NCBI GenBank assembly: GCA_049472335.1
Contig: JBLIRO010000001.1
Coordinates: 12,225 to 76,224, forward strand
From: a bacterium
Lineage (GTDB): Bacteria > SZUA-182 > DTGQ01 > JAFGSM01
Direction of reading: 5' to 3'
DNA length: 64,000 nt
Part shown: positions 43,592-62,965 of the stretch, piece after piece
Layout of the letters: each line of letters starts with the position of its first letter
Numbering within the stretch: position 1 is the stretch's first letter
The notes under the pieces: model-generated
What the model saw: only the letters and a program-made list of their open reading frames with translations
Database searches by the model: none
What the model was told of the DNA's origin: nothing
Position numbers and translations under genes: made by a program

Positions 43592-44029
43592 TTGTTTTTT
43601 CCTCCTTCTATCTATCGGTATTGCTGATCCGAAGGAGCCCCCCCTCTTCATGACAGCATTTTTAAATAAGGATACGAACGGATAGGCCGAACGTACAGGT
43701 CATATTTAATGCATATAACGTGCCTGTGTTTTATCCCCTTTCCTTCTCATTAGAAGTATTGGATGCATTTTTTTGTCTCTATATAATAGACGTAAAAACT
43801 TCTACAGTTTCCTACGAAAAAATCAAATGTTATTGATTTTTTATTGACAGGACTATCTATTCTCACATATACTTTCCCGTATTAAAATAGATACAAATTT
43901 TGCATTGTATTAATTTTCAAAGACAGGCTTGAGTCCATAATTGTCATTATATTTTTAATATAAGAGAAAAAAGTCTAAAAATCTAATGGACATCCCGGAG
44001 CGCCAAGGGGTGAAAAAGGAGGGGGAAAA

Positions 44030-45947: not shown

Positions 45948-48900
45948 TCAATAGAATCTGGGATCAGGAGAATGTGGAGCTGAAATTACCCCCCCTGATT
46001 GTGGTCTTCGAAAAGATGGGGAAGGTAAATGTATATGGTCAGGTGCTGTTTTGTCTATAATAGACCCTCCGGCTATAGTTACCGTCCTTATAGTAATTCC
46101 TCTAACTATTTTGTGAGAAATAGAAGTTGCAATTCCTGTTGCCGCTCCCCATATTAATCCTGCACCCATTGTACTAATCATAGGGATTGGATCTACCATT
46201 GGATTACGATTAATACCAATTTCATCTATTATGTTTCCACTTGGATCACGTGTAATCCATTCATTATCAGATGGAAGTTGATTTTTGGGTGAAGGATCTA
46301 GCCAATACGCTGGATTATTAAGAATTTCTTTTGGTGATGTGATATTCCCCCTTTCAGTAGTCTCATCCTTTGGTGAAAGTAAAGGACGTCCGTCATCTTT
46401 ACATGGCTTTTTACATAATCCTAGTGCATCGACAAAGTTAACCGGATTATTCCCCACATACCGATACAAATTAATATCCCCACCAGCAAACCCAATCGGA
46501 TCGGGGGTCAAGAATCTTCCAATTTTCGGATCATAGTACCTTGCTCGATAATAGTATAGTCCACTTTCTGGATCGTATTCTCTGCCAGTATAGGTGTATG
46601 GATTATTCAAAGCACTGGTTTGATCTACTATATTTCCAAAGGAATCGTAGGTGTATTCCTGTTGGGTATTTCCATAAATATCAAGAACTTGCACTATGCT
46701 TCCTAAAGCATCAAATAGGTAATAATATGAAATATCTCCTTGCTCCATTTGGATTGGTTCATCAATACCAAGGCCATGAGTGTAACGGGATGAGATATTG
46801 AAGCTGCCATTCAGGATAAATATAATATCTTCGTCATCATAGATATAATAGGTTTTAACACCATTCACTTCTTTGCAAATTCTTCTACCCAATCCATCGT
46901 AGTAGTAAAAAATGTTATTATTAGAAGTGTTAATTCCTATCAACCGATTTTCAGAATTATAGGTATAGTTTGTAGCTTGGCCTGTGGACTTATTGGTCTT
47001 TCGGGTAAGGCAACCATTAGTATATTGATATGTAAAATCCCCATCATCAAGAAGCCTGTTCCCTGTATCATAGCTCCAACCGGATGTGAGAGCAGAAGAG
47101 AGACGATTTCCCGCTGTATCGTAAGTAAAGGTTTCTGTATCAATGGATGGATGAGCCGCCTGGAGCAACTGATTGAGTTTATCATAGATATAATCATGAT
47201 CACCATCCAGATCTGTCATCTTTGTGCGATTCCCTACTGCATCATATTCATAGCTATAACCGGATATAGTAAATGAATCGAGATTATGATTCAGAGAAGA
47301 AAGATCACCATTGGAATTATAGCTGTAAAGAGAGGAGAGATTATTGGGTAATGTTTTTGAAGTTCTTCGGTTATTTTGATCATATGTAAAGCTTGTAGTC
47401 TGGCCATTTGGATCTGTAATTGTAGTAGGACTATCGAGTTCATTATAGGTGTAATTGGTTACCGAGCCATAGGGATCGGTAATACTCAACCGATTACCAT
47501 TGGAATCATAGGTGTAAGTGATTGTTGTTTGTGGTTGATAGGCGCTGGCTGCCGTCCGGGCAGTAATGGGCCGATTATTATTGTCATAGCTGAAGGAGAG
47601 AGAAGAAAAGGGATTGGTAATGCCGATGATATTGTCCACCTGATCGTAGCTATAAGTAGTCATGCTTCCATCAGCCAAAATCTTTTTTGTCATGCGGTCA
47701 AGACTGTCATACTCATAGTTTATTTTGTCGCTGTTATAGAGTGTTTTTTGAATCAGGTTTCCATTCTTATCATAAGTATAAAATTCTTGCTCTCCTAAAG
47801 GATTAGTCATAGACACCTTACGATTTAGATTATCATAGCTAAAGGTGGTGGTCTGCCCTTTGGCATCGGTAATGGCAAGAAGATTGCCATTTCCATCATA
47901 AACAAATGTGGTTTGACCATTGAGTGGATCGATAGTTTTTATCATCCGATTCTCTAAGTCGTATTCATAGTAAAAAGTATTCCCTTTTGCATTGGTCATA
48001 GAGATGCGATTTCCCATAGCGTCATAGGTATAAGTTGTCTGATTGCCAAGCGGATCGGTCTCTTTGATTAAACGGTTAAGGGCATCGTATTCATAAGCAG
48101 TAGTGGCGCCTTTTGCGTCCATGCTGGTCAAGATATTATCATTGTTGTCATATGTGTAAGTGATTTCATTCCCTAAAGGATCTATGATCTTGACAAGCCT
48201 GTCTTTGCTGTCATATTGGTATTGAGTTGTATTCCCATTTGCATTTGTCATAGAGATACGATTTCCCATAGCGTCATAAGTAAAACTTATTTGCCCTCCT
48301 TCGGGATCAATAAGATTTGTTAAATTATTCATAGCATCATAGGCATAAGTGGTAATATGTCCTAATGAATCAGTAACTGAGATTATATTTCCCGCAGCAT
48401 CATAGGTGTAAGAGGTTACATTTCCCAGGGCATCGGTTTTTTTAATCATATTGCCAAATGAATCATATTCATAAGTGGTAGTGGCACCATTGGCATTTGT
48501 AATAGTATGAACAAGCCCGTTGCTGTAATAGGTCATGGTTGTTGTATGACCAATCGGGTTTGTGACTTTGACTGGATTTCCCTTGGTATCGTAATTAAAG
48601 GTAGTGACCCTGCCTAAGGGATCGGTTATGGTTTTAACTTTATTGAAGGTGCTCTCATACGTATAGATAGTGGTATTCCCTTCTCTATCTGTATAAAAAA
48701 GAAGATTGCCTTTATCATCATATCCTTTTTGGACGGTGGCACCATCAGGGGTATGGATTTTAGTGACATTACCTGATTCCGTATCACGTTCATATGTTGT
48801 GACATTATTTAAAGCATCTGTTTTACTCAATAAGCGTCCATATTTATCTGTTTTCATATGTGTCATATTCCCCTCAGGATCTGTGTACAGATCATCATGA

Positions 48901-51900
48901 GGTAATTGAACTGAGACAGGATTTCTGTATGTCCCGATATTTTCGGGAAGATCGTTTATTAAACCTGACCCGTCAGAAGGAGCGTATTGGTCAATCCCTT
49001 CATCAGGCCAAACAACACTATTAACCATGCCATGAATGTTATAGTTGAACTGGGTAGTCCTGCCAAGAGGATCGGTTTTAGATGTCATAAGATGTTGGTT
49101 ATCATAAGTGAAATTTGTGTTTGATCCATCCGGAGCAATGATTTTAATAAGGTTATTGTCAGCGTCATGGCTAAATTGTGTAGTCCTTCCGGCAGGATCG
49201 CTGATTGAAGCAAGGTTATGGCCGTTGTAAGTAAAAGCAGTAACAAGATCTGCCGGATCGGTAATACTTGCCAATCTGTCATTTGCATCATAGGCATAAG
49301 TTGTGGTCCGGCCATTGGTGTCTGTCTTGGAGGTCTGGAGTCCCTTAGCATTGAATTGATACGTTGTACCATCTTTCATAATGCGGGTGTAGGTGCCATC
49401 ATCATGGCGGGTGAGTTTGGAATAATCTCCTTCAGGTGAAGAAAGTTCCGAAGTTCTAATTCCAAATCCGATATCCTTTATTATCCTGATGCAGTGATTT
49501 ATCAAGTCAGCAATATATAAGTTTCCTGCTCCATCAATTTTTACCATCCTCGGCCAATCCAAGTCTGCCTCAGTCGGGGGGCCTCCATCTCCTGAATAAC
49601 CCCTAGTTCCTGTTCCTGCTATAGTGGTAATTATACCATTGGGATCTACACGCCGTATTCGATTATTACTAAAGTCAGCAATATAGATATATGATCCGTC
49701 AACTTCTACTCCACAGGGATTTCTGAGACACGCCTGTGTAGCAGGGCCCCCATCTCCTGAATAACCCCTGATTCCAGTTCCTGCTATGGTGGTGATTATA
49801 CCGGTAGAGGTGTCCACTCTTCGTATACAACTATTATCCCTGTCAGAAATATACAGATTTCCTGCGGCATCGGTTTCTGCATTAAAGGGACGATTTAAGC
49901 TTGCCTGTGTAGCAGGACCTCCGTCTCCTGAATAGCCCCTGATTCCATTGCCTGCATAAGTAGTGATGATACCGGCAGGATCTATTCGCCGCACACGGTC
50001 ATTTTCTCTGTCAGCAATATATACATTTCCTGCTGCATCAACTGATATCCCTGTCGGAGAGTTAAAGCTTGCCTGTGTAGCAAGGCCTCCGTCTCCTGAA
50101 TATCCTGCTGTTCCGGTACCTGCTATAGTGGTGATGATACCGGCGGGATTTATTCGCCGTATGCTATGATTACCATAGTCAGAAAAATAGATATTTCCAG
50201 CTCTATCAACCGCAATTCCCCAGGGATAAAATATACTTGCCTGTGTAGCAGGCCCGCCGTCTCCTGAATAGCCTATCGTTCCTGTCCCTGCTATAATGCT
50301 GACTACACCAGTGGGGTCGACTCGCACTATGCGTTGGTTATTAGAGTCTGCAATATAGAGATTTCCTTCTGCATCGGCTGCTATCCCATTAGGAGTGTTA
50401 AAGGTTTCCTGTGTAATCGGACCTTGAAAATCTTTTACATAAGTTTTAATGGTGCCTCCAGTATCAAAATACAATTTTTCTCCTGAACCTGAGACAAGCG
50501 TGACATAGTTATCATAAGAATTGCCATAGATCCTTTGCAGTTCGGCAATACTCCAACCTGCACCAATCGGACTGTTAATCCGGTTATCAATGCTGATTTT
50601 GCCCTTAAATTCCCTTTTTAAAGGAAAATCTCGTGGTGCCCGTATAGGATTACCCAGACTATCTAAGACTAATCCCCCCGACTGGGAGGCAAACCATGGA
50701 GCAGCATTGTAATAAGCGGGACACCAATTAATTAGCTCGATAAGATAAGGAAAGCCGCCGGAGGGCAGCTTTTCTCCTCTAAAATTTGTTCCATCAAATA
50801 AATACCTGAAGCTTATATTGTCATTTTTGGGTAAAAAGACACGGCTTGTGTTTATCCCGCCTATATTTACTTTGAATTCTACCTTTTCAATTAAGGCCAC
50901 CTGATTTGAGTCCATTTCATATTCCAGAGAAATCATCGCCTTGGGATCGGCAGAATTGCTTCTATAGAAAAGTGATACGGTATGAGAGGCCCCTATTGAA
51001 TTGTATGCCGGCAGATGATAATCCTCAATCAATTCCCCGTCTTTATAGATGACTTTGCATCCTCCCTTTCCATCCTTATCACTGGATGCAGGGTTATTTT
51101 TTTTTCGACTGGTGTTTTTTACCGGTATTTTTTTTAGTGCTTCGGAGCTTGATGAAGGCCTTGAACCATAGTTTAAATCATACGAACTGAAGTGGACTAC
51201 AAAATACTCCATATATTTTCCATCTTCTGTGATCACACCCATGCCATCGGGAACCCATCTTCCCAGATCCTTACGATAATAGCCCACCGGTACAGGGGTG
51301 CCGGGAGCAAAACCAAGGGAATTTTCTACCAGTATTCGCGTGGGTTTCTCCAAGGTCAAGCCGTCAGGTGTTAGTTTAACAGCAGTGGTAAAATGAGAAG
51401 TAGGGGGCAAATCACCAGGAAGCTCTCGATTGTCGTAGAGCCGCGTAGCTGAAACATTAACTGCTTCTGTCACGGAATTAACCTCAAAATGGAGCTCAAC
51501 ATCACCGGTAGAATTAATCAGTGTTCCTCCATCCTCGGGCGTAATTGTAACAGTTACCGGATCAATGGGAACAAGGTAAATAGGTTCAACTGCAAAATCA
51601 TACCCTGATTGGACATGAATTCGCCTTTGGGCATAAGTGTATCCTTCTTTTTCAATCAGGATTAGATAAAACCCTTCTTTTGGAGTAGGGAAAGAAAATT
51701 TCCCATTTGCATCTGTCATCATCTGGCCCACATTGGCCATTTTAATGGTTGCACTCTCTAAAGGTGCTTCAGTTCTGGCATCAAAGACCTCACCATCGAT
51801 AAAGCCTGATTTTTCAACGATAGTTGGAGTAAGATAGCATAGATCAGATCCATTACAATCCTCATCAATGCCATTACATTGAATTTCAGTTGCGCCAGGA

Positions 51901-53120
51901 TATGCCCCGGGATTTTGATCATGACAGTCTCCGCTCTCTGCCGTATAGCCATCGAAGTCCAGATCTGCCAGGTGAGGAGATGGTGCATCCTTGCCATCAC
52001 AATTTTCATCAATGCCATTCTCGGGAAAATCTGTGGCACCAGGGAAGACAGCAGGATTATTATCATCACAATCCCCTTGCCCAACTGACCAAAGATCTCC
52101 ATCGGCATCATTCAAAACACACGGAAGGTCCTCTCCGCTGCAATCCTGATCTGTATTGTCCTCACATATTTCCGCAATTCCGGGATTAATATTTGGATCG
52201 TTGTCATCACAATCTTGTGGTCCACAAGTACTTCCTTCAATAGAGAAGCCGTCACCATCGGTATCAGTACAACATATCGAATCCTTTCCATTGCAGTCCT
52301 GATCAATACCGTCTTCACAGATCTCAGAAGCGCCAGGGAAAATACTGGCATTGTTGTCATCACAGTCGCCTCCGCAGGTAGTAATATTATCTCCATCTGA
52401 ATCAAAGCCCTCATCTGTTAATGCATTGCAATTATCATCAATATTATTGCAGATTTCGTTGGCATCCGGATTTATATTTGGATCGGTATCATTGCAATCC
52501 CGAGGACCACATAAACCACTTTCAATGGCAAAACCGTCTTCATCAAAATCAGTACAAACAATAGGTCCTCCACTCCCATCAACAATTAACAGGGTTTTGT
52601 TATCTGTATTACTTAGGAGAATCCAATATCCTTTGGAAGGTTCAAGATATTCGGATTCAAGGATTCGTTTATATCCAATCCCTCTTACATAGCCATATAT
52701 CACTTCAATATTGCCATTTTGCACTGAAGCCTTAGCAGGACATGTACAACCACCAATCATAAGCCATCCATCCTCAGATATTGTTTGGTTATACGATTGA
52801 AAGATTGTACCGTTTACACTATATGCTTGGTTTTGATCTAATAGTATCCAATAGCCCTTACCACTCTCGAGTTCTTCATTGTCGGCAACTCGAACATACC
52901 CTATCCCCTTTTTATAACCATAAATAACAACTGCACCAGGGAACAATGATGAAACATAGGCGTTTACAGGTATAACTGGAAGTGAAATCATACTCCAACC
53001 TGCAGGGAAATCCAGATTATTACTTATATTTTCTGCTCCGGCATAAGGAAGATAAACTATTAATAAAGCTATCAATACAAAACAAAAAGACATATAAAAG
53101 ACATTAGTGTTATTTTTCAT
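45948..53120 (-). CDS. Giant secreted teneurin-like polymorphic-toxin protein: Cys-rich MopE-type repeats + carboxypeptidase-regulatory (TTR-like) domain + NHL beta-propeller + YD-repeat shell + RHS core + C-terminal variable domain
   Basis: The 2390-aa product has a signal peptide from the ATG at 53120 (RBS GGGGA). It carries five DxDGDG...DCDD...CDGxDxDC repeats. The NHL repeats read …NLYIADxxNxRIRRVD…IAGTG…GYSGDGGPAT. There are many YD repeats (YTYDxxGN). The RHS core ends …YYDPKIGRFLTPDPIGFAGGDINLYRYVGNNPVNFVDALGL, followed by about 170 aa of unrelated C-terminus. Confidence 0.85.
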   Translation of the reverse strand: MKNNTNVFYMSFCFVLIALLIVYLPYAGAENISNNLDFPAGWSMISLPVIPVNAYVSSLFPGAVVIYGYKKGIGYVRVADNEELESGKGYWILLDQNQAYSVNGTIFQSYNQTISEDGWLMIGGCTCPAKASVQNGNIEVIYGYVRGIGYKRILESEYLEPSKGYWILLSNTDNKTLLIVDGSGGPIVCTDFDEDGFAIESGLCGPRDCNDTDPNINPDANEICNNIDDNCNALTDEGFDSDGDNITTCGGDCDDNNASIFPGASEICEDGIDQDCNGKDSICCTDTDGDGFSIEGSTCGPQDCDDNDPNINPGIAEICEDNTDQDCSGEDLPCVLNDADGDLWSVGQGDCDDNNPAVFPGATDFPENGIDENCDGKDAPSPHLADLDFDGYTAESGDCHDQNPGAYPGATEIQCNGIDEDCNGSDLCYLTPTIVEKSGFIDGEVFDARTEAPLESATIKMANVGQMMTDANGKFSFPTPKEGFYLILIEKEGYTYAQRRIHVQSGYDFAVEPIYLVPIDPVTVTITPEDGGTLINSTGDVELHFEVNSVTEAVNVSATRLYDNRELPGDLPPTSHFTTAVKLTPDGLTLEKPTRILVENSLGFAPGTPVPVGYYRKDLGRWVPDGMGVITEDGKYMEYFVVHFSSYDLNYGSRPSSSSEALKKIPVKNTSRKKNNPASSDKDGKGGCKVIYKDGELIEDYHLPAYNSIGASHTVSLFYRSNSADPKAMISLEYEMDSNQVALIEKVEFKVNIGGINTSRVFLPKNDNISFRYLFDGTNFRGEKLPSGGFPYLIELINWCPAYYNAAPWFASQSGGLVLDSLGNPIRAPRDFPLKREFKGKISIDNRINSPIGAGWSIAELQRIYGNSYDNYVTLVSGSGEKLYFDTGGTIKTYVKDFQGPITQETFNTPNGIAADAEGNLYIADSNNQRIVRVDPTGVVSIIAGTGTIGYSGDGGPATQASIFYPWGIAVDRAGNIYFSDYGNHSIRRINPAGIITTIAGTGTAGYSGDGGLATQASFNSPTGISVDAAGNVYIADRENDRVRRIDPAGIITTYAGNGIRGYSGDGGPATQASLNRPFNAETDAAGNLYISDRDNSCIRRVDTSTGIITTIAGTGIRGYSGDGGPATQACLRNPCGVEVDGSYIYIADFSNNRIRRVDPNGIITTIAGTGTRGYSGDGGPPTEADLDWPRMVKIDGAGNLYIADLINHCIRIIKDIGFGIRTSELSSPEGDYSKLTRHDDGTYTRIMKDGTTYQFNAKGLQTSKTDTNGRTTTYAYDANDRLASITDPADLVTAFTYNGHNLASISDPAGRTTQFSHDADNNLIKIIAPDGSNTNFTYDNQHLMTSKTDPLGRTTQFNYNIHGMVNSVVWPDEGIDQYAPSDGSGLINDLPENIGTYRNPVSVQLPHDDLYTDPEGNMTHMKTDKYGRLLSKTDALNNVTTYERDTESGNVTKIHTPDGATVQKGYDDKGNLLFYTDREGNTTIYTYESTFNKVKTITDPLGRVTTFNYDTKGNPVKVTNPIGHTTTMTYYSNGLVHTITNANGATTTYEYDSFGNMIKKTDALGNVTSYTYDAAGNIISVTDSLGHITTYAYDAMNNLTNLIDPEGGQISFTYDAMGNRISMTNANGNTTQYQYDSKDRLVKIIDPLGNEITYTYDNNDNILTSMDAKGATTAYEYDALNRLIKETDPLGNQTTYTYDAMGNRISMTNAKGNTFYYEYDLENRMIKTIDPLNGQTTFVYDGNGNLLAITDAKGQTTTFSYDNLNRKVSMTNPLGEQEFYTYDKNGNLIQKTLYNSDKINYEYDSLDRMTKKILADGSMTTYSYDQVDNIIGITNPFSSLSFSYDNNNRPITARTAASAYQPQTTITYTYDSNGNRLSITDPYGSVTNYTYNELDSPTTITDPNGQTTSFTYDQNNRRTSKTLPNNLSSLYSYNSNGDLSSLNHNLDSFTISGYSYEYDAVGNRTKMTDLDGDHDYIYDKLNQLLQAAHPSIDTETFTYDTAGNRLSSALTSGWSYDTGNRLLDDGDFTYQYTNGCLTRKTNKSTGQATNYTYNSENRLIGINTSNNNIFYYYDGLGRRICKEVNGVKTYYIYDDEDIIFILNGSFNISSRYTHGLGIDEPIQMEQGDISYYYLFDALGSIVQVLDIYGNTQQEYTYDSFGNIVDQTSALNNPYTYTGREYDPESGLYYYRARYYDPKIGRFLTPDPIGFAGGDINLYRYVGNNPVNFVDALGLCKKPCKDDGRPLLSPKDETTERGNITSPKEILNNPAYWLDPSPKNQLPSDNEWITRDPSGNIIDEIGINRNPMVDPIPMISTMGAGLIWGAATGIATSISHKIVRGITIRTVTIAGGSIIDKTAPDHIHLPSPSFRRPQSGGVISAPHSPDPRFY

Positions 53121-53480
53121 AGCATTCCCCTTAAATAAATTTATTTCATTGCCATTAAATTTCATAAGGAATTGCTTTAAAATAAATAATGAATAGGATT
53201 TGCTTTCCTGTATAAAAGTATAAGCAGAGCTTTCGACTTTTGTTTAAAAAGCTCCTATCTGCATCGTATAGCTCATTTACTAAAATATGGAAGATTTTTA
53301 ATGTCTCACAAACATATCAAATCGCTTGCAAAAAAACAACTGTAGAAGCAGTTTCCAACTAATTATTTTTTTTATAAACTTTTATCCTTCGGTGTGATCC
53401 ATAGATCATGAGTGTTTAGCAAAAGATGAATCTGGTAAATTTCAATCTCTGGCTAAGAAAAAAGAGATAGATGAAATCAT

Positions 53481-53567
53481 CTATCTCTTTTTTGCAATGA
53501 ATAAGGCATTGATATCATTATCAGTAAAATAATGGATTGCCAGCCTTAATATTAGTCTTGGTCTTCA
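53481..53567 (-). CDS. Tiny ORF (28 aa, GTG start) VKTKTNIKAGNPLFYCNDINALFIAKKR, a paralogue of the neighbouring 19-aa ORF
   Basis: The SD GGGGGTG lies 9 nt upstream. The N-terminus matches the 53655-53714 ORF with mainly synonymous differences. The 3' end overlaps an A/T-rich palindrome (53458-53493). Confidence 0.35.
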
Positions 53568-53654
53568 CTTTTAATTCACCCCCTTTTTATTGGAAGAAGA
53601 ACGTGTCACAAGGTCTTTTTCAATATATAATCTTGAGTTTTAAAAGATTAGTGT

Positions 53655-53714
53655 TTAGTATGACCACCAGGGTTTGACATCCACTCCGGCTTTAATGTAG
53701 GTTTTGGTCTTCAT
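53655..53714 (-). CDS. Tiny ORF (19 aa) MKTKTYIKAGVDVKPWWSY with a strong Shine–Dalgarno site
   Basis: The SD AGGAGGTG lies 7 nt upstream of the ATG. The paralogue 90 nt downstream conserves the first 10 aa. Confidence 0.45.
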   Translation of the reverse strand: MKTKTYIKAGVDVKPWWSY

Positions 53715-53945: not shown

Positions 53946-55496
53946 ATGTCCTTTACCCGGTCCCTCAGATTTATATATACTGAAAGATCTCGTCTTCCTT
54001 TATGGGGAATCTTTATTCTTATCATTCTCCTTACCTGCTGGATGGTATGGTTTTCTTCCGTAAAGATTCCCATTTATACAATGACGGATTCAGCCCGCCT
54101 AGAAGTGGATCAGGCTTCACACCCCATACAAACATCCATTGATGGAAAGATCACAGAGATTTCCATGAAGCTCGGACAGGAGGTCCAGGTTGGAACAATC
54201 CTGGTCAGATTGGATGATCAGTCCCTTCAGTTGAGAAGAAAAGAAGCGCTGGACCGGTTCAACTCTCTCTCCGCCGAAGCATCGGCCCTGGAAAAACAGA
54301 TATCCCAGGAAGAAATGCTCCTTGAAGAGGAAGGAAAAATCGTCCTTATAAAACTTCAGGAGGCGCGATCCCGTTATCAAGAAGGAGAGATAGCGGCAGT
54401 ATTCGCGGAGGATGAAGTCAAACGTTTAAACAAGCTTTTCACCCAGGGGGCACTATCTGAGTCAAAACTTTTACACGCTAAATCCGAAGCCGAAAAGAAA
54501 AGGGCGTCTGCAGAAGCGCTTCGTATCGCCCTTGACAGGCTAAGAGGGGAATGTCAGGTCCAGGAGAAGAGACGCCAAACGCGCTTGAGTCAACTCAGGC
54601 AGCAACTGCTTCACATTCAGGGAGAGATTCAGAACAGCGCCACGGTAATGGAGCAGCTCGACTGGGAGATTGAGAAGCACCTTATCAGGACTCTGGTGGC
54701 CGGCGAAATTGCCGAGATTGCCGACCTTCATCTCGGGATGTTTATTGAAGAAGGATATAGGCTAGGCGCCATTCTGCCCCAGGGCAAGCTCCGTGTGGTG
54801 GCATATTTTGAGCCGGCAGTCGCCCTTGGCAAGGTTCACCCCGGCCAGAAGGCTCATCTGAGGATGAAGGGCTTTTCCTGGCTGGAATACGGCCGGGTGG
54901 CGGCAAGGGTCCAGAAGGTAAGCCAGGAGATCCGCCACGGACAGTTGCGGGTCGATCTGGAGGTCGACGATAAGGACAGCCCCATCCCTCTGCAGCATGG
55001 TCAGCCGGTAAGGGTCGAGATTGAAACCGAAAGGATTACCCCAGCAACACTGGTTCTGCGAAAAGCGGGAAATGTCTTTTCCCCCGGGTCTCCTTCCGTT
55101 TCCATCAATAATCATTCCCTGACCGTGGAAGTTGTTGCCACCAGAGCAGCAAGACAGCGGGGCCTGATGTACCGGGAAATGCTTCCGGCCGATCATGGGA
55201 TGTTGTTTGTTTTCCCAAGGGAAGGCCCTCTTTCATTCTTGATGAAAGATACGTTTATCCCGCTCAGTATAGCCTTTCTTAATTCCGAAGGGATCATCCT
55301 GAAGATTATGAAAATGTATGTTGAACCTACGAATAATGAAGCGTTGTCTAGAACATATGCCACGGACCCTCATGCGCCTGCTATGTATGCCCTGGAAGTG
55401 AATCAGGGCTGGTTTGAAAGCCATGGGGTTAGACGTGGAAACCGGGTAAAAGGTCTCAAACGATTGAATATCGGCTTTGTAGAATCCCAGGCCTGA
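53946..55496 (+). CDS. HlyD-family periplasmic adaptor (type I / bacteriocin secretion) fused to a C-terminal DUF192/UPF0127 domain
   Basis: The N-terminal TM helix, lipoyl-like domain, long coiled coil and beta-barrel are typical of HlyD. The C-terminal ~110 aa (…RGLMYREMLPADHGMLFVFPREGPLSFLMKDTFIPLSIAFLNSEGII…YALEVNQGWF…GNRV) match the UPF0127/DUF192 consensus. Confidence 0.75.
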   Translation: MSFTRSLRFIYTERSRLPLWGIFILIILLTCWMVWFSSVKIPIYTMTDSARLEVDQASHPIQTSIDGKITEISMKLGQEVQVGTILVRLDDQSLQLRRKEALDRFNSLSAEASALEKQISQEEMLLEEEGKIVLIKLQEARSRYQEGEIAAVFAEDEVKRLNKLFTQGALSESKLLHAKSEAEKKRASAEALRIALDRLRGECQVQEKRRQTRLSQLRQQLLHIQGEIQNSATVMEQLDWEIEKHLIRTLVAGEIAEIADLHLGMFIEEGYRLGAILPQGKLRVVAYFEPAVALGKVHPGQKAHLRMKGFSWLEYGRVAARVQKVSQEIRHGQLRVDLEVDDKDSPIPLQHGQPVRVEIETERITPATLVLRKAGNVFSPGSPSVSINNHSLTVEVVATRAARQRGLMYREMLPADHGMLFVFPREGPLSFLMKDTFIPLSIAFLNSEGIILKIMKMYVEPTNNEALSRTYATDPHAPAMYALEVNQGWFESHGVRRGNRVKGLKRLNIGFVESQA

Positions 55497-55520
55497 CCTG
55501 ACACACACAGGATTTTTTAA

Positions 55521-58262
55521 ATGCTTGTTTCTCTTATCAAAAAACAGAAAAAATCTTTTATCCCGGAGGTCATTCAAAGCTCGGCCATGGATTGCGGTCC
55601 GGCTTCGCTCAAGGCCCTTCTGGAAGGATTCGGCATCCCGGTAAGTTATGGGCGGCTCCGCGAAGCATGTCAGACCAGTGTGGATGGAACGTCCATTGAC
55701 ACACTGGAGGAAGTTTCCAATCAGCTCGGCCTTGAAGCAGAGGAGATCATGCTCCCCCCGGATCACTTCTTTCTCCCGGAAGCGAAGGCCCTGCCCGCTA
55801 TAGTCGTGGTCCGGCTCCCAAGCGGTGTGACCCATTTTGTAGTGGTCTGGGAACGCCATGGCCCTTTTGTACAGGTCATGGACCCGGGCAGCGGAAGACG
55901 CTGGGTCACCTATAAACAGTTCATGAAGGAGGTTTATATCCACCGCATGCCCGTTTCTGCCTCTCTTTGGAGGGAATGGGCAGGATCTGAGGCCTTTCTC
56001 TCTCCCTTCAAAAGGCGCCTGACTCAGCTTGGGATTTCTCAAAGGGAGCAAAAGGAGCTCATTCATCATTCCCTTTCAGACCCTGGCTGGTATCATCTTG
56101 GTGTCCTGGATGCCGCCACCCGAATGGTGGATGCCCTCATGAAAGCCGGTGGACTGCAAAGAGGTCGGGAAGCGGCAAAGGTGCTTCAAACATTTGTCCC
56201 GGAATCCCTTTCAAAGGGTCCTTTTCAGGAATCTCCCATCCCTCCCGTTTACTGGTCCATCCAGCCCATGCCTTCAGCCAGTGACGGGGAGGAGGAACAA
56301 CTGATCCTCAAGGGAATGGTCCTTGTAAGGGTATCAGGCCGCCGTTCGATCCCCTCTGATCAAAAGAAGCAGGATTTTACAGAAAAGGCTCCCCTCCCCC
56401 TGGAGCTTGAGGCAGCCCTTAAAGAACCTCCGGTCAAGCCGGGAAGGGAAATCTTAAGATTCCTCCGGGCCGATGGCATCCTGACTCCCTTAGCCCTGGG
56501 TTTTGCCTTTATTCTTGTATCCTTTGGCTTTATTCTGGAGGCCATATTATTGCGGAGCCTTTTTGAGATCGGAAGGGACCTGAACCTGATAGAACAAAGA
56601 TTAGGCGCAATGGGGGCCCTTATCATCTTTTCCCTTGCCCTGCTGTTGTTAGAGCTCCCTATTGGCTCATGCATCTTAAAACTGGGGCGGCATCTGGAAT
56701 CCCGGCTCAGGATAGCGTTTTTGCAAAAGCTCCCCCGGCTTCAGGACCGCTATTTCCAGAGCCGGCTCAATTCGGACATGGCGGAACGATCTCACAGTGT
56801 TAACAAGATAAGGCTTTTACCCGGATTGGGCAGCCGGTTTGTACGCTCTATAATAGAGTTCTTCATCACTGCCGCGGCCATTGTGTGGCTCTTTCCGGAA
56901 AGTCTTTTAATAGTCCTGGCAGGCGTTTTCCTCACCATCATTATACCGCTTGCCAGCCTGTCATTCCTCACGGAAAGGGACCTTCGGGTACGAAGCCATC
57001 TGGGGGCCTTAAGCCGTTTTTACCTGGATACACTTCTGGGGCTTGTCCCCACGAGGGCACATAGCGCTCAAAAACCTATATGCAGGGAACATGAAAGCAT
57101 GCTCGTGGAATGGAGCAGGGCAAGCCTTCGTAATGTGATCGCTGTACTGACTGTGGAGGCAGTTCAGGACCTGATCGGGTTCGGTATCGCCTTCTGGCTG
57201 CTCCTGCACTATTATAAACGGGGAGGGCCTGAAAGCGGCGTACTTCTCCTGGTTTACTGGGGTCTACATCTATCCGCGCTGGGCCAGGAAATTATAAAAA
57301 CAGCCCGCCAGTATCCTACCCATCGCAATATCGCCCTGCGTCTCATGGAGCCTTTAGGGGCTCCTGAAGAAAACTCCTCCCGGGGAGGGGATTTGTCCCA
57401 AACGAAGGACTCATCTCCTTCAAAAAACAATCTTTCTCATGGGATCTCCATATCCATGGAAGGGGTGGGTATAAAGATCTCCGGTCACAACATATTAGAA
57501 GGCGTGGACCTTGCCATTCCGCCCGGTGCCCATTTCGCAATCATCGGACCATCCGGAGCTGGAAAATCAAGCCTGGTCGGCCTTCTCCTGGACTGGTACC
57601 GTCCGTCCGCGGGAAAGATCCTGATCAATGGAAGGCCTCTTACACCTGAAGTATTGGAAAATATGCGCAAGTCCACCGCCTGGATCGATCCGGCTATACA
57701 GCTTTGGAACCGCTCCCTTATAAAGAACATTTACTACGGCATCGATCCTGAATCAGCCTCTCCTGCCGGAATGGTCATGGAAGAGGCCCAGCTTATGGAA
57801 CTTCTGGAGAAATTACCTCAAGGCCTGGGAACAATCCTGGGAGAAGGCGGAGCACTGGTTTCCGGAGGGGAAGGCCAAAGGGTGCGCCTGGCACGGGCCA
57901 TGGCAAAGGGCGATGTCCGTCTTGTAATCCTGGATGAGCCATTTCGGGGGCTCGACCATCAAAAAAGGGATGAGCTTCTCAATAAGGCCCGCTGCCTCTG
58001 GAAGGATGCCACCCTGATCTGCATTACGCACGATATCAGCGCCACAAAGAGCTTTGACAGGGTCATTGTCATAGAGCATGGGAAGATTGTCGAGCAGGGG
58101 GCCCCGAAAGACCTCGCGGAAAAGGCGGATTCCTTTTACCGGAAATATCTGGATTTTGAAAAAGCGGTCACAGAAGAGATTTGGCGTAAATCATTGTGGA
58201 GGAGGATCTCCATCAAAAAGGGAAGGATTATAGAGGAGGGAGTCCCTGATGGAAAGGTTTGA
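55521..58262 (+). CDS. Peptidase-C39-domain ABC transporter (bacteriocin/peptide processing-export, permease + ATPase)
   Basis: The C39 catalytic Cys (SAMDCGPASL) and His (THFVVVW) are present, followed by six TM helices. The ATPase carries Walker A GPSGAGKSS, signature LSGGEGQR and Walker B LVILDE. Confidence 0.85.
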   Translation: MLVSLIKKQKKSFIPEVIQSSAMDCGPASLKALLEGFGIPVSYGRLREACQTSVDGTSIDTLEEVSNQLGLEAEEIMLPPDHFFLPEAKALPAIVVVRLPSGVTHFVVVWERHGPFVQVMDPGSGRRWVTYKQFMKEVYIHRMPVSASLWREWAGSEAFLSPFKRRLTQLGISQREQKELIHHSLSDPGWYHLGVLDAATRMVDALMKAGGLQRGREAAKVLQTFVPESLSKGPFQESPIPPVYWSIQPMPSASDGEEEQLILKGMVLVRVSGRRSIPSDQKKQDFTEKAPLPLELEAALKEPPVKPGREILRFLRADGILTPLALGFAFILVSFGFILEAILLRSLFEIGRDLNLIEQRLGAMGALIIFSLALLLLELPIGSCILKLGRHLESRLRIAFLQKLPRLQDRYFQSRLNSDMAERSHSVNKIRLLPGLGSRFVRSIIEFFITAAAIVWLFPESLLIVLAGVFLTIIIPLASLSFLTERDLRVRSHLGALSRFYLDTLLGLVPTRAHSAQKPICREHESMLVEWSRASLRNVIAVLTVEAVQDLIGFGIAFWLLLHYYKRGGPESGVLLLVYWGLHLSALGQEIIKTARQYPTHRNIALRLMEPLGAPEENSSRGGDLSQTKDSSPSKNNLSHGISISMEGVGIKISGHNILEGVDLAIPPGAHFAIIGPSGAGKSSLVGLLLDWYRPSAGKILINGRPLTPEVLENMRKSTAWIDPAIQLWNRSLIKNIYYGIDPESASPAGMVMEEAQLMELLEKLPQGLGTILGEGGALVSGGEGQRVRLARAMAKGDVRLVILDEPFRGLDHQKRDELLNKARCLWKDATLICITHDISATKSFDRVIVIEHGKIVEQGAPKDLAEKADSFYRKYLDFEKAVTEEIWRKSLWRRISIKKGRIIEEGVPDGKV

Positions 58263-60369
58263 TATCCTCTACTGGCCTGTCTCCAGACTGGGAGAGGCAC
58301 TAAAGCTTATGGGTGAAATAAGCGGCCTTTCTCCGAAGCCTGAGGAAATCCCTTTGGCCCCTAAAGGGACTAGTGAGAACGAGGACTCCATCTCGGAATG
58401 GATCGAAGCCCTGGCGCAATGGATAGGCATTGAAGCCGAGCCGATGGAGGTCAGCTACGGGGATGTGGAAACATTTATCCTGCGGTCGGCCCCGGCCCTC
58501 ATCCGTCTGCCGGGGGATGGCTCTCCATCCTTTTTTGCACTTCTTGGACAGAAAAAGAAAAAGGCCCTTGTTTTAGGAAAAGACGGGGGCATTCACCCCA
58601 TGGAGGTATCTCACATTGCAAAGATGCTTTGCGGGCCCATGGAGGAAATGCTGGGGCCGCAGATCGAAGATCTGTTAAACAGGGCAGAGATCCCGGAAAA
58701 AAAGAGGGCCGGAATCAAACAGGAGCTTCTTTCCACCCATCTTTCACCTGTTTTGTTAAAGGGATTCTGGCTGCTCCGCCTTGCACCATACCGGGGCTTT
58801 TTTAAGACCCTGTTCCAGGCAAAGGTGATCTTCCCTTTTTTTACCTTTCTCCTTGTCCACACCTTCCAATATCTCTTATGGATACTCTCCTGGTGGGTTA
58901 TAGGAAAAGGGGCGCTTGAGGGCCACCTGCATCTGGAATGGATCATGGGATGGGGGCTTCTCCTTTTGAGCCTTGTTCCCTTAAAGGCCCTTGTGACATG
59001 GGCCGAAGGGCGCCTGGCCATAGGAGTGGGCGGGGTGTTTAAACAGAGGTTACTCTATGGCGCCATGCGTATAGAACCGGATGACATCCGGCACCTTGGA
59101 TCAGGTGCCCTCCTGGGGCGTGTTTTCGAATCAGAAGCCCTGGAATCCCTGGCCCTGAGCGGGGGATTTACAGCGATCCTCGCCCTGGTGGAGCTTATCA
59201 TCTCTCTCGCTGTCCTCATGATAGGTGCAGCCGCGTGGCTTCATACACTGTTTTTTATCCTATGGATGGCCATATTTTCGGTTATACTTTTAAAGTACTT
59301 GAAAGCCCATAAGCTCTGGGTAGAAGGCCGTATCCGGATGACGAACGACCTGGTGGAAAAGATGGCAGGGCATCGGACAAGGCTCACCCAGGAAGCAAAA
59401 GAGCGTTGGCATCAGGGAGAGGATGAAGCCTTGGAGGAGTATCTAAAACAATCAAAGAGGTTAGACCGGTCTTCCCTCCTGATCATGTCCCTTATCTCAA
59501 GGGGATGGATGGTCCTGGGCCTGACCGGACTTGCCCCTGCCTTTGTCCGGGGCGTTTCTCCCGCCTATCTGGCGATCAGCCTGGGAGGAGTGCTGCTGGT
59601 ATATAAGGCACTTAAAAGCCTCTCTGTCAGCCTTGTGCAGCTCATCGGGGCATTCGTAGCATGGAAATACGTATCTCCCTTTTTATATGCAGCCGGCAAA
59701 CCCGAAGAGACAGGGGTCCCCACGTGGACAAAAGCCCGGGAAGACCTTTCGGAAAAGGACCCCCTTCTGGTATCAAGGCACCTGTTTTTTCATTACCCTA
59801 ACCGAAGGGATCCCGTCATTCAGGATAGTGACCTTTCCATCTATTGGGGTGACAAGATACTGCTTGAAGGCCCCTCCGGATGCGGGAAGTCCACCTTGAG
59901 CGCCATCTTATCCAACCTGCGCGATCCCAAGGGAGGCATAATTCTCCTGCACGGACTGGACCGGAACATCCTGGGAAGGAAAAACTGGCACAAATCCGTG
60001 TGCGTTGCACCTCAATTTCATGAAAACCATGTGTTTACAGAAACCTTTGCCTTCAATCTGCTGATGGGGCATCGATGGCCTCCCCGGCCGGAAGATATGC
60101 AGGAGGCAGAAACCATCTGCCATGAGCTCGGACTCAGCGAGGTCCTTTTAAGGATGCCAGCGGGACTGCTCCAGATGGTTGGAGATACCGGATGGCAGCT
60201 CTCCCATGGGGAAAAAAGCCGCCTTTACATGGCAAGGGCCCTTCTCCAAAAGGCGGACCTTATCATCCTGGATGAAACCTTTGCCGCTCTGGACCCCCAG
60301 ACCCTTGAACAATGTCTGCAATGTGTGCTTCGCCGGGCCAAAACCCTTCTGGTGATCACCCATCGTTAA
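58249..60369 (+). CDS. Second ABC transporter (permease + ATPase) with a degenerate, Cys-less N-terminal C39-like domain
   Basis: Carries Walker A GPSGCGKST, signature LSHGEKSR and Walker B LIILDE. It is translationally coupled to the upstream ABC gene and has a strong RBS AGAGGAGGG. Confidence 0.8.
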   Translation: MERFDILYWPVSRLGEALKLMGEISGLSPKPEEIPLAPKGTSENEDSISEWIEALAQWIGIEAEPMEVSYGDVETFILRSAPALIRLPGDGSPSFFALLGQKKKKALVLGKDGGIHPMEVSHIAKMLCGPMEEMLGPQIEDLLNRAEIPEKKRAGIKQELLSTHLSPVLLKGFWLLRLAPYRGFFKTLFQAKVIFPFFTFLLVHTFQYLLWILSWWVIGKGALEGHLHLEWIMGWGLLLLSLVPLKALVTWAEGRLAIGVGGVFKQRLLYGAMRIEPDDIRHLGSGALLGRVFESEALESLALSGGFTAILALVELIISLAVLMIGAAAWLHTLFFILWMAIFSVILLKYLKAHKLWVEGRIRMTNDLVEKMAGHRTRLTQEAKERWHQGEDEALEEYLKQSKRLDRSSLLIMSLISRGWMVLGLTGLAPAFVRGVSPAYLAISLGGVLLVYKALKSLSVSLVQLIGAFVAWKYVSPFLYAAGKPEETGVPTWTKAREDLSEKDPLLVSRHLFFHYPNRRDPVIQDSDLSIYWGDKILLEGPSGCGKSTLSAILSNLRDPKGGIILLHGLDRNILGRKNWHKSVCVAPQFHENHVFTETFAFNLLMGHRWPPRPEDMQEAETICHELGLSEVLLRMPAGLLQMVGDTGWQLSHGEKSRLYMARALLQKADLIILDETFAALDPQTLEQCLQCVLRRAKTLLVITHR

Positions 60370-60504
60370 CCAAAAAATGACCATAAGGATTTACTAAAAA
60401 ATCCTTCTTGACAAAAGGCATCTTCCAGGGATGAAAGTCATCGGTACCAAAATTTCAATCCTAAAGCACCCATTTCATATTCTGTTTTAATACGCATTTT
60501 GTAA

Positions 60505-62520: not shown

Positions 62521-62965
62521 ATAAGATTGGAAATACATATTTCCCTTTTTATATGCAGCCGGCTAGTCCGAAGAGACAGGTGTTCCTGTATGGACGAAAG
62601 ACCGGGAAACCTTTGCCTTCAACCTGCTGATGGGACACCGATGGCCACCCCGGCCGGAAGATATGCAGGAGGCCGAAACCATCTGCCATGAGCTCGGACT
62701 CAGTGAGGTCCTTTTAAGGATGCCCGCTGGACTGTTACAGATGGTGGGAGATACCGGGTGGCAGCTCTCCCATGGGGAAAAAAGCCGCCTTTATATGGCA
62801 AGGGCGCTTCTTCAAAGGGCGGACCTTATCATCCTGGATGAAACCTTTGCAGCACTTGCCCCCCAGACCCTCGAACAATGCCGGCAATGTGTCTTAGCCG
62901 GGCCAAAACCCTTCTGGTTATCAACCACCGTTAATTAAAACCATAACCATAAGGATTTACCCACA
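62521..62965 (+). pseudogene. Decayed partial duplicate of the 3' end of the ABC gene at 58249-60369
   Basis: Nucleotide identity to 59664-60395 is high but interrupted by an internal ~287-bp deletion at an AACCTTTG microhomology and a 1-bp frameshift near the end. The identity extends 25 nt past the stop codon. Confidence 0.75.

What the first reader, a model, noticed from the sequence alone, without database searches (positions are those of the whole stretch)
53946..55496. HlyD-family membrane-fusion protein carrying a C-terminal DUF192/UPF0127 domain
The 523-aa product has a normal HlyD adaptor (TM helix, lipoyl-like domain, long coiled coil, beta-barrel). It then continues in frame into an ~110-aa domain whose sequence (…RQRGLMYREMLPADHGMLFVFP…FLMKDTFIPLSIAFLNSEGII…YALEVNQGWF…) matches the uncharacterised UPF0127/DUF192 family. 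Fusing a function-unknown periplasmic domain to a peptide-export adaptor suggests DUF192 takes part in substrate handling, for example processing, binding or gating. I do not recognise this fusion as a described architecture.
Basis: partly seen in the sequence, partly recalled or inferred. Interest (0 to 1): 0.6.

Follow-up and report, generated by a model that had tools for sequence, protein, structure and literature searches.

The report
Peptide-export adaptor with extra DUF192 domain
The gene is real: it encodes the periplasmic adaptor of a peptide-cleaving ABC exporter that has picked up a complete, normally free-standing domain of unknown function (DUF192) at its tail, a rare, recurrent and dispensable add-on, and following it up exposed a family of tiny secreted-peptide genes next to these exporters.

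Summary
The ORF at 53946..55496 (+) is uninterrupted and encodes 516 aa from the ATG that has a ribosome-binding site (523 aa only from an upstream TTG). It is an EmrA/HlyD-type adaptor (aa 1-378), a disordered linker of about 14 aa, and a full DUF192 domain (aa 393-502; Pfam 97.7 bits against a cut-off of 27; fold matches 3pjy and 3m7a). It heads a three-gene cassette: adaptor, C39-peptidase ABC, second ABC. The fusion is rare: 5 of the best 150 family representatives and 0 of 80 metagenome relatives. It recurs in at least four diverged lineages, whose DUF192 domains resemble free-standing DUF192 proteins more than each other. Relatives 80% and 65% identical lack it as a clean ~450-nt indel. 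The C-terminus lies at the inner-membrane end of the adaptor, so the domain cannot cap the tip. The function of DUF192 is still unknown. My best reading is a tethered accessory binding module, as in SilB-CusF. By-product: 14-20-aa peptide genes with the leader MKTKTN(V/I)KAG flank these cassettes (37 of 87 loci against 0 of 80 controls; two in this window). They are probably the substrates.

The parts
53946..55496 (+). Gene for the 516-aa HlyD/EmrA-type periplasmic adaptor fused to DUF192. It is identical to NCBI MGA1839034.1.
   Evidence: ORF; RBS GGGAG 7 nt upstream of the ATG; Pfam; identity to the deposited protein.
54000..54068 (+). Single N-terminal transmembrane helix (aa 19-41). The Arg-rich aa 1-18 before it are cytoplasmic, so everything after the helix is periplasmic.
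   Evidence: Hydropathy scan; AF2 helix 19-38. The orientation is inferred from the positive-inside rule.
54069..55079 (+). Adaptor core (aa 42-378): split lipoyl domain, two helices of about 75 residues forming the hairpin (92-166 and 172-244), a beta-barrel (300-364), and a conserved C-terminal helix TPATLVLRKAG (366-378).
   Evidence: AF2 pLDDT mostly 85-96; Foldseek best hit EmrA 4tko E=2.8e-19, then EmrAB-TolC and MacA; HlyD_3 and Biotin_lipoyl_2; invariant P366, L369 and R372.
55080..55121 (+). Flexible Ser/Pro/Gly-rich linker (aa 379-392). This is the fusion junction. Unfused relatives end about here.
   Evidence: pLDDT below 50 for aa 379-393. Linker length and sequence differ between fused lineages. 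DNA homology to the unfused L010 and L005 stops at about 55080-55098.
55122..55451 (+). DUF192/UPF0127 beta-sandwich domain (aa 393-502), followed by a 14-aa tail that runs to the stop codon.
   Evidence: PF02643 97.7 bits; PDB 3pjy E=7e-18 and 3m7a E=5e-7 by sequence; AF2 domain model pLDDT 86.6 with Foldseek TM 0.73/0.81 to 3pjy; all 13 invariant family columns retained.
55521..58262 (+). 913-aa ABC transporter with an N-terminal C39 peptidase domain. The Q19, C25, H105 and D121 motifs are present.
   Evidence: Peptidase_C39 74.1 bits, ABC_membrane and ABC_tran. The best NCBIfam hit is NHLM_micro_ABC1, far below its cut-off. The catalytic residues were read from the translation.
58249..60369 (+). 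706-aa second ABC half-transporter without a recognisable peptidase domain. Its start overlaps the upstream gene by 14 nt.
   Evidence: ABC_tran 75.8 bits. The same gene order is found in L005, L006, L008, L010, L011 and L173.
53655..53714 (-). Micro-peptide gene A: MKTKTYIKAGVDVKPWWSY (19 aa). Probable exporter substrate, transcribed divergently from the cassette.
   Evidence: RBS AAGGAGGTGA and ATG. The leader family is enriched at these cassettes: 37 of 87 loci against 0 of 80.
53521..53568 (-). Micro-peptide gene B: (GTG start) MKTKTNIKAGNPLFY (15 aa). Probable exporter substrate.
   Evidence: RBS AAGGGGGTGA and GTG. Compared with gene A, five of the six differing leader codons are synonymous (read).

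Best explanation
The gene encodes the inner-membrane-anchored periplasmic adaptor of a three-gene peptide exporter. The other two genes encode an ABC protein with an active-looking C39 leader peptidase and a second ABC half-transporter. The likely cargo is a family of very small ribosomal peptides. Each has a conserved 10-residue leader, MKTKTN(V/I)KAG, ending in a small-residue-Gly pair, followed by a variable tail of 4-20 aa. Two such peptides are encoded divergently just upstream. The C39 domain would cut after the A-G pair, and the adaptor would carry the peptide out through an outer-membrane channel. A complete DUF192 beta-sandwich has been added to the adaptor's normal C-terminus through a disordered linker of about 14 residues. 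Elsewhere DUF192 is a free-standing protein with a signal peptide. Topology places the domain in the periplasm at the inner-membrane (beta-barrel) end of the adaptor, around the exit of the ABC dimer, and not at the tip. I read it as a tethered, non-essential accessory binding module. The fusion concentrates whatever DUF192 normally does in the periplasm at the export site, with several copies per pump if the adaptor oligomerises like its relatives. The CusF-like domain on the C-terminus of the SilB adaptor is the precedent. Shown here: the architecture, the topology, the rarity, the recurrence, the dispensability and the peptide association. Inferred: the cleavage site, the cargo identity, and above all what DUF192 binds.
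For: Architecture: Pfam, PDB and AF2 results. Cassette: the same adaptor, C39-ABC, ABC order is found in many loci. Selection on the domain: it is 75% identical between the window and P0002, against 79% for the adaptor part, and all invariant DUF192 columns are kept. Recurrence: there are eight fused proteins in about five 50%-identity clusters. They are scattered in a neighbour-joining tree of the adaptor part, with unfused nearest neighbours. Their DUF192 domains are 35-42% identical between lineages but 51-57% identical to free-standing DUF192 proteins. Some carry the PLS motif and others the PLD variant. Tethering rather than rigid integration: the linker has pLDDT below 50 and varies in length and sequence. 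Modularity: the domain is a clean ~450-nt indel relative to L010 (80% aa identity) and L005 (65%). Cargo: leader-type peptide genes occur in 37 of 87 cassette loci (91 genes) and in 0 of 80 control loci of equal total length. With only the first 8 leader positions fixed, 93 of 98 hits continue with [A/S/G]-G. 69 of 80 have a Shine-Dalgarno core. A second, distant fused locus (L173) also has MKTKTNVKAGQASYQPQPQ about 200 nt upstream. Precedent: SilB carries a C-terminal CusF-like metallochaperone domain that also exists as a stand-alone protein (PMC4446572).
Against: No experiment or literature assigns any activity to DUF192. Beyond the family's own structures, the fold search gives only weak similarity to beta-sandwich and lectin-like folds. 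Cargo that passes from the ABC dimer into a sealed adaptor/outer-membrane duct would not meet a domain hanging outside that duct, so a substrate-binding role needs an extra assumption. Unfused cassettes have no DUF192 gene within 8 kb (0 of 87 loci). Free-standing DUF192 genes have no adaptor within 6 kb (0 of 80) and no consistent neighbour. DUF192 is therefore not a regular partner of this machine. The fusion does not track peptide tail type: the unfused L005 has similar aromatic-rich tails. The neighbour-joining trees are not bootstrapped, so the number of independent fusion events is approximate. No outer-membrane factor gene lies in the cassette.
Confidence: 0.5

Rival explanations
1. The fusion is neutral or opportunistic. 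DUF192 only needs to be outside the cytoplasm and near the membrane. Joining it to the C-terminus of any N-in/C-out periplasmic protein replaces its own signal peptide. There is no functional coupling to peptide export.
For: The domain is dispensable: relatives 80% and 65% identical keep the operon without it. DUF192 and this cassette are never neighbours when they are separate genes. DUF192 also turns up in single cases fused to unrelated cytoplasmic enzymes, a shikimate dehydrogenase (P0065) and a GlmS-like protein (P0066), so sporadic fusions do occur. The linker of P0192 (SSALLALAGPS) looks like a leftover signal peptide.
Against: The same partner and the same junction recur in at least four diverged lineages with differently related DUF192 domains. 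The domain is as conserved as the adaptor and keeps every invariant residue. In L173, L174 and L003 a fused adaptor is maintained beside a plain paralogue, which suggests a distinct role.
Confidence: 0.22
2. The domain is a structural surrogate for a membrane-proximal domain. DUF192 docks on the periplasmic loops of the ABC heterodimer, or on neighbouring adaptor protomers, and stabilises or gates the adaptor-transporter complex, as the membrane-proximal domain does in MacA- and AcrA-type adaptors.
For: The adaptor is EmrA-like and has no membrane-proximal domain (PMC4446572). DUF192 sits exactly where a membrane-proximal domain would follow the beta-barrel.
Against: The linker is disordered and not conserved. 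The domain is about 50% identical to ordinary free-standing DUF192 proteins and has no adaptor-specific features. More than 95% of family members work without it.
Confidence: 0.15
3. DUF192 is an enzyme that acts on the exported peptides in the periplasm, for example by trimming or modifying them.
For: The family has a conserved polar cluster (E, R, K/R-N/D-T, S/D, E, N). The cargo is unusually small and variable.
Against: There is no similarity to any catalytic fold. The PLD/PLS position varies within the family. The family is ubiquitous, occurs in unrelated gene contexts, and is present in monoderms and many phyla. The peptide tails share no common modifiable residue.
Confidence: 0.05
4. The fusion is an artefact: two adjacent genes joined by a sequencing error, a missed stop codon or a chimeric assembly.
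For: None was found. The only caution is that the window comes from a metagenome-assembled genome.
Against: The frame is continuous. The same fusion occurs in at least eight proteins from independent samples and sources. There is no signal peptide or start codon at the junction in this lineage.
Confidence: 0.01

Closest known systems
EmrA / HlyD-type periplasmic adaptor proteins (membrane fusion proteins), e.g. Aquifex EmrA (PDB 4TKO), E. coli EmrAB-TolC, HlyD, and CvaA of the colicin V exporter
   Same: An N-terminal TM anchor, a split lipoyl domain, a very long alpha-hairpin, a beta-barrel, no membrane-proximal domain, and a gene placed next to its inner-membrane transporter. CvaA/CvaB/TolC is the classic pairing of a Gram-negative adaptor with a C39-ABC transporter (own knowledge).
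   Different: It carries an additional C-terminal DUF192 domain. It works with two different ABC proteins rather than one. It scores far below every curated NCBIfam adaptor subfamily cut-off, for example TIGR01843 71 against 208.65 and TIGR00998 74.5 against 390.8.
NHLP / Nif11-type three-gene export cassette (TIGR03794 adaptor, TIGR03796 C39-ABC, TIGR03797 ABC; Haft et al. 2010, PMC2887384)
   Same: Identical three-part architecture and gene order. The peptide cargo is defined by a conserved leader rather than by tailoring enzymes.
   Different: All three proteins score far below the equivalog cut-offs: 36.2 against 156.2, 185.1 against 853.3, and 96.8 against 709.4. The associated peptides have a 10-aa MKTKTNVKAG leader and tails of 4-20 aa, not NHLP or Nif11 leaders of about 70-80 aa.
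SilB of Cupriavidus metallidurans CH34: an RND adaptor with a C-terminal CusF-like metallochaperone domain (Bersch et al. 2011, cited in PMC4446572)
   Same: A small periplasmic beta-domain that also exists as a stand-alone protein is fused to the C-terminus of an adaptor. This places an accessory binding function at the pump.
   Different: The pump class differs (RND metal efflux that captures substrate from the periplasm). CusF and DUF192 are unrelated folds. The CusF ligand is known, and the DUF192 ligand is not.
DUF192 / UPF0127 / COG1430 free-standing proteins (PDB 3PJY from Sinorhizobium meliloti, 3M7A Saro_0823 from Novosphingobium)
   Same: About 50% identity to many 130-170-aa members. 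The fold is the same and all invariant residues are present.
   Different: Free-standing members have their own signal peptide or anchor and sit in unrelated gene neighbourhoods. Here the adaptor's TM helix provides export and anchoring.

Membership tests
Periplasmic adaptor / HlyD-family membrane fusion protein | Lipoyl (biotinyl-like) domain split by an alpha-helical hairpin, followed by a beta-barrel domain | tested here: met
   HlyD_3 43.9 bits (cut-off 22.2) and Biotin_lipoyl_2 30.5 bits (cut-off 29.8). The AF2 model has helices 92-166 and 172-244 and a barrel at 300-364. Foldseek matches EmrA 4tko at E=2.8e-19.
Periplasmic adaptor / HlyD-family membrane fusion protein | Inner-membrane anchor (N-terminal TM helix or lipid) with the bulk of the protein in the periplasm | tested here: met
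   One hydrophobic helix at aa 19-41 after an Arg-rich N-terminus. The orientation is inferred, not measured.
Periplasmic adaptor / HlyD-family membrane fusion protein | Encoded with its cognate inner-membrane transporter | tested here: met
   The C39-ABC gene starts 25 nt downstream on the same strand. The order is conserved in many loci.
Periplasmic adaptor / HlyD-family membrane fusion protein | Bridges to an outer-membrane factor (TolC-like) | not testable with these tools
   No outer-membrane factor gene lies in the cassette. The hairpin length is like that of EmrA and HlyD. Neighbouring genes in the window (bacterial alpha-2-macroglobulin, an MtrC-like cytochrome) suggest a diderm cell.
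DUF192 / UPF0127 (PF02643) | Match to the family HMM above the gathering score | tested here: met
   97.7 bits against 27; aa 393-502 cover profile positions 2-95 of 96.
DUF192 / UPF0127 (PF02643) | Same fold as the solved members 3PJY and 3M7A | tested here: met
   AF2 domain model pLDDT 86.6. Foldseek TM 0.73/0.81 to 3pjy and 0.69/0.71 to 3m7a.
DUF192 / UPF0127 (PF02643) | Conserved family residues (GLMxR, GMLF, FWMKNT, PL[SD], YALE.N.GWF) | tested here: met
   All 13 invariant columns of a 121-sequence alignment are present. One near-invariant Trp (FWM) is Leu in the window. PLS replaces the PLD of the crystal structures, as it does in most close free-standing members.
NHLP/N11P export cassette (TIGR03794/03796/03797 equivalogs) | Three-gene architecture: adaptor, C39-ABC, ABC without peptidase | tested here: met
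   and PMC2887384.
NHLP/N11P export cassette (TIGR03794/03796/03797 equivalogs) | Proteins reach the curated equivalog scores | tested here: not met
   36.2 against 156.2, 185.1 against 853.3, and 96.8 against 709.4 bits.
NHLP/N11P export cassette (TIGR03794/03796/03797 equivalogs) | NHLP or Nif11-type precursor genes associated with the cassette | tested here: not met
   No such family appears among the 25 NCBIfam families listed for the 69 small intergenic ORFs of the window, but 184 families matched and only those 25 are shown. No classical double-glycine leader was found by regex. A different family with a 10-aa leader is present instead.
Peptidase-containing ABC transporter (PCAT) for the downstream gene | N-terminal C39 domain with catalytic Cys/His (plus Gln and Asp) fused to the ABC transmembrane and nucleotide-binding domains | tested here: met
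   Peptidase_C39 74.1 bits (cut-off 22). Q19, C25 (MDCGPASL), H105 and D121 were read from the translation. ABC_membrane and ABC_tran are present.

The most novel reading that the evidence does not exclude
The adaptor / C39-ABC / ABC cassette is the dedicated processing and export machine for an undescribed, widespread family of 14-20-aa ribosomal micro-peptides. These have the leader MKTKTN(V/I)KAG and mature tails as short as 4 residues, and they often sit beside Ser/Thr kinases with TPR domains. Together they would form a peptide signalling or antagonism system of soil and sediment bacteria. The occasionally fused DUF192 domain would be a periplasmic receptor or chaperone for these peptides, which would give this ubiquitous, structurally solved domain of unknown function its first assignment.
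Probability: 0.2. Interest if true: 0.8.

Novelty: new variant of a known kind. Interest (0 to 1): 0.5.

Why it matters
DUF192/UPF0127 is found across many bacterial phyla, and two crystal structures have been available since 2010. No function is known, and I found no informative gene neighbourhood for it. A fusion that recurs in-frame with one particular exporter adaptor is the only contextual clue obtained here, and it suggests direct experiments: truncate the domain and test peptide binding. For transport biology it adds a second example, after SilB-CusF, of an adaptor that carries a stand-alone periplasmic domain on its C-terminus. It is also the first such example on an ABC peptide exporter. 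The follow-up further points to an apparently undescribed class of tiny leader-bearing peptides tied to a conserved cassette with two ABC proteins. If confirmed, that would define the cargo of hundreds of 'orphan' HlyD/C39-ABC operons in soil metagenomes. The fusion itself is rare and dispensable, so it is not a core feature of the machine.

Tried and rejected
- Literature searches for DUF192, UPF0127, COG1430 and PF02643 gave only incidental mentions. A search for the peptide leader string gave nothing, and so did a search for C39 + HlyD + Acidobacteria.
- The DUF192 domain has no PHROGs hit.
- I surveyed the neighbours of 80 free-standing DUF192 genes by running Pfam on 126 flanking genes. 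No family occurs in more than 5 of them (superoxide dismutase 5, LpxC 4), and no adaptor lies within 6 kb. Gene context therefore gives no functional lead.
- The 'long' DUF192 ORFs in those loci are start-codon over-extensions in high-GC DNA, not fusions.
- I looked for a separately encoded DUF192 near 87 unfused cassettes and found none.
- P0004's C-terminal tail ('AMYLFEAGNG') was checked as a possible decayed DUF192 remnant. The DNA alignment shows no homology, so this was rejected.
- A dN/dS comparison with P0002 was not possible because no DNA is held for it. Per-region amino-acid identity was used instead.
- The metagenome scan seeded from the fused alignment used motifs in the adaptor part and returned only unfused relatives.
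- A classical double-glycine leader regex and an NCBIfam scan of small window ORFs found no known precursor family. NCBIfam does not recognise the micro-peptides.
- The synonymous/non-synonymous count over all leaders is circular, because the hits were selected by amino-acid pattern. I do not use it as evidence.
- The N-terminal 200 aa of the second ABC protein show no significant similarity to the C39 domain.
Full report
**1. Observation**

The + strand carries one uninterrupted ORF that ends at 55496. Two starts are possible: TTG 53925 (523 aa) and ATG 53946 (516 aa). GGGAG lies 7 nt before the ATG. The 516-aa product is identical to the deposited protein NCBI MGA1839034.1, 'MAG: DUF192 domain-containing protein [bacterium]'.

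Pfam gives DUF192 (PF02643) at aa 393-502 with 97.7 bits against a gathering score of 27. It also gives HlyD_3 and Biotin_lipoyl_2 above their cut-offs.

**2. Anatomy**

A hydropathy scan finds one TM helix at aa 19-41 behind an Arg-rich N-terminus. By the positive-inside rule, the rest of the protein should be periplasmic.

An AlphaFold2 model built on 55 homologues is confident for the adaptor part. It shows:
- lipoyl strands;
- two helices of about 75 residues (92-166 and 172-244);
- a beta-barrel (about 300-364);
- a conserved terminal helix (366-378).

Residues 379-393 have pLDDT below 50. The best solved match is the MFS-type adaptor EmrA (4tko, E=2.8e-19), followed by EmrAB-TolC and MacA. 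EmrA-type adaptors have no membrane-proximal domain (PMC4446572).

The DUF192 part was modelled alone on 121 sequences and reaches pLDDT 86.6. It superposes on the two solved DUF192 proteins, 3pjy (TM 0.73/0.81) and 3m7a. It also hits them by sequence, at E=7e-18 and 5e-7. Beyond these, only a trypanosome mitoribosome assembly factor matches significantly. Other beta-sandwich, lectin or CBM folds match only weakly. No catalytic fold is suggested.

The adaptor's tip is the hairpin turn near aa 166-172, and the chain returns to the membrane end before the linker. DUF192 must therefore sit near the inner membrane. It cannot cap the tip.

**3. Operon**

The next gene starts twenty-five nt downstream. 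It encodes a 913-aa ABC protein with an N-terminal C39 peptidase. The Q19, C25, H105 and D121 motifs are all present. A 706-aa ABC protein without a peptidase follows.

NCBIfam places the three proteins closest to the NHLP/Nif11 export cassette, but far below every equivalog cut-off. That cassette was defined by Haft et al. 2010 as adaptor + C39-ABC + ABC (PMC2887384). The window's cassette works like it but is not a member.

The same three-gene order is conserved in many bacteria, including Methyloglobulus morosus.

**4. How common is the fusion?**

- An exhaustive HMMER search of 1.84 billion representatives finds 845 relatives at E<=1e-30. Among the best 150, only five extend through DUF192: P0002, P0189, P0008, P0192 and P0236.
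- The word-indexed search adds P0001 and P0016.
- Of the 80 best metagenome relatives, none is fused.
- No DUF192 ORF lies within 8 kb of any of 87 cassettes other than the fused ones.
- Conversely, 80 free-standing DUF192 genes from many phyla, including monoderm lineages, have no adaptor within 6 kb and no recurrent neighbour.

DUF192 is therefore not a regular component of this machine.

**5. Is the fusion selected?**

Several results say yes.

- *Independent assemblies.* The fusion is present in independent assemblies, one of them a Blastocatellia MAG.
- *Conservation.* Between the window and P0002 the DUF192 part is 75% identical, against 79% for the adaptor part. All 13 invariant family columns are kept.
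- *Scatter in the adaptor tree.* In a neighbour-joining tree of the adaptor part, the fused proteins fall in at least five places, and each has unfused nearest neighbours.
- *Different DUF192 sources.* The DUF192 domains of different fused lineages are only 35-42% identical to each other but 51-57% identical to free-standing DUF192 proteins. Some lineages carry the PLS motif and others the PLD variant.
- *Same junction.* The junction always follows the conserved ...LRxAG helix, but the linkers differ in length and sequence.

Together these point to several independent gains or domain swaps. The trees are not bootstrapped, so the exact number is uncertain.

The domain is also dispensable. L010 (adaptor 80% identical) and L005 (65%) have the same operon without it. 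At the DNA level the module is a clean ~450-nt indel between collinear flanks.

In L173/L174 and L003 a fused adaptor coexists with a plain paralogue (58.6% and 41% identical) beside the same ABC pair.

**6. Cargo**

Clustering the genes around the cassettes exposed short ORFs read in the wrong frame. In the right frame they are tiny genes that begin MKTKTNVKAG.

- With a leader pattern, 37 of 87 cassette loci (784 kb) carry 91 such genes. None of the 80 control loci (776 kb) carries any.
- When only the first eight leader residues are required, 93 of 98 hits continue with A-G, S-G or G-G. None of the 4 control hits does.
- 69 of 80 distinct genes have a Shine-Dalgarno core, which was not part of the selection.
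- Tails are mostly 4-6 aa (for example YRIQ, QRVQ, MHIA), with some longer. A few precursors repeat the unit KVKTRVKAG...NHNETL.

The only two matches in the whole 64-kb window lie in the intergenic region next to the adaptor gene, on the minus strand. They are 53714..53655, MKTKTYIKAGVDVKPWWSY, and 53568..53521, (GTG) MKTKTNIKAGNPLFY. Each has a strong RBS. Five of the six codon differences in their leaders are synonymous.

A distant fused locus (L173) also has MKTKTNVKAGQASYQPQPQ about 200 nt upstream.

The small-residue-Gly pair next to a C39 transporter makes these the probable substrates, cleaved after Gly10. This is an inference. NCBIfam does not know the family, and no paper contains the leader string. 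Ser/Thr kinases with TPR repeats recur near the cassette in 23 loci.

**7. Mechanism**

*Shown:*
- the fusion architecture;
- the periplasmic, membrane-proximal position of DUF192;
- the flexible tether;
- rarity, recurrence and dispensability;
- the peptide association.

*Inferred:* DUF192 is an accessory binding module that the fusion concentrates at the export site. This is analogous to the CusF-like domain on the C-terminus of the SilB adaptor, which also exists as a stand-alone periplasmic protein (PMC4446572).

*Weak points:* nothing is known about what DUF192 binds, and cargo travelling through a sealed duct would not meet a domain outside that duct.

*Rivals:*
- a neutral fusion that merely supplies export and anchoring (0.22);
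- a docking surrogate for a membrane-proximal domain (0.15);
- a peptide-modifying enzyme (0.05);
- an artefact (0.01).

**8. Novelty and verdict**

The fused protein is in public databases under automatic names, but I found no description of it in the literature. It is a new variant of a known kind: an adaptor with an accessory C-terminal domain. By itself it is of moderate interest. It is the only contextual handle on DUF192 found here, and it led to an apparently undescribed micro-peptide/exporter association that deserves its own follow-up.

Noticed in passing
window 53521-53568 (-) and 53655-53714 (-); also L005, L008, L093-L172 (37 loci), and L173:9797: A family of tiny genes (mostly 14-20 aa) with the conserved leader M[KQ][TV]K[TS]x[VI][KR][ASG]G, variable tails and strong ribosome-binding sites. 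They often occur in tandem arrays of 2-9 beside the adaptor/C39-ABC/ABC cassette: 37 of 87 loci against 0 of 80 controls. NCBIfam does not recognise them, and no paper contains the leader string.
   Followed up: yes
L094, L108, L125, L145, L150, L153 and others (23 loci); L011:2217-7493: Ser/Thr protein kinases fused to TPR repeats (some with CHASE2, AAA_16 or WD40-like repeats) recur next to the cassette, sometimes 3-4 per locus. They could be receptors for the peptides, but this is untested.
   Followed up: partly
L112, L114, L157, L161: Longer precursors repeat the unit ...KVKT[RHK]VKAG-x5-NHN[EQ]TLV... two or three times. This suggests multi-core peptides in which each core is preceded by the leader motif.
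   Followed up: no
window 62528-62960 (+): A decayed partial duplicate of the 3' end of the second ABC gene. It matches 59662-59749 and 60040-60394 at 84-91% nt identity, with an internal deletion, a premature stop and a frameshift. It lies after an inserted ~2.2-kb segment that carries a 479-aa gene of unknown family and a MntA-like fragment.
   Followed up: partly
window 53946-55600 compared with L004:10001-11655: Mosaic divergence between two strains. Nucleotide identity is 88-95% across the adaptor part but 98-100% from about nt 1200 of the gene onward (DUF192 and the start of the ABC gene). The switch falls close to the domain junction and suggests recombination. Homology upstream of the gene ends about 85 nt before the ATG, and L004 has a transposase-like gene (DUF772) there instead of the peptide genes.
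   Followed up: partly
window 58249-60369 (+): The second ABC protein stops immediately after the H-loop (...LLVITHR*), so it lacks the usual ~40 C-terminal residues of a nucleotide-binding domain. Homologues have similar lengths (666-765 aa), so this appears to be a family trait rather than a truncation.
   Followed up: no
window 53464-53493: A 10-bp hairpin (GAGATAGATG-AAAT-CATCTATCTC) flanked by A and T runs on both sides lies just downstream of the second peptide gene. It looks like a bidirectional intrinsic terminator, but the scan tool did not call it.
   Followed up: no
window 45948-53165 (-), 37187-43651 (-), 27839-32368 (-): Three very large neighbouring genes: a 2405-aa RHS/YD-repeat protein with NHL and MopE-type repeats, a 2154-aa bacterial alpha-2-macroglobulin, and a 1509-aa multihaem cytochrome with an MtrC-like domain. 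Together they are consistent with a diderm, probably anaerobic organism.
   Followed up: no
P0065, P0066, P0058, P0063 (proteins): Other DUF192 architectures: tandem DUF192-DUF192 (P0058), a 600-aa protein with several DUF192-like repeats (P0063), and single-case fusions to shikimate dehydrogenase and to a GlmS-like GATase-SIS protein.
   Followed up: partly
PDB 6yxx/6yxy/7aoi chain EH/XH: A Trypanosoma brucei mitoribosomal large-subunit assembly factor is the only significant structural match to DUF192 outside the family's own structures (E about 3e-4, TM 0.57-0.60 over the query).
   Followed up: no
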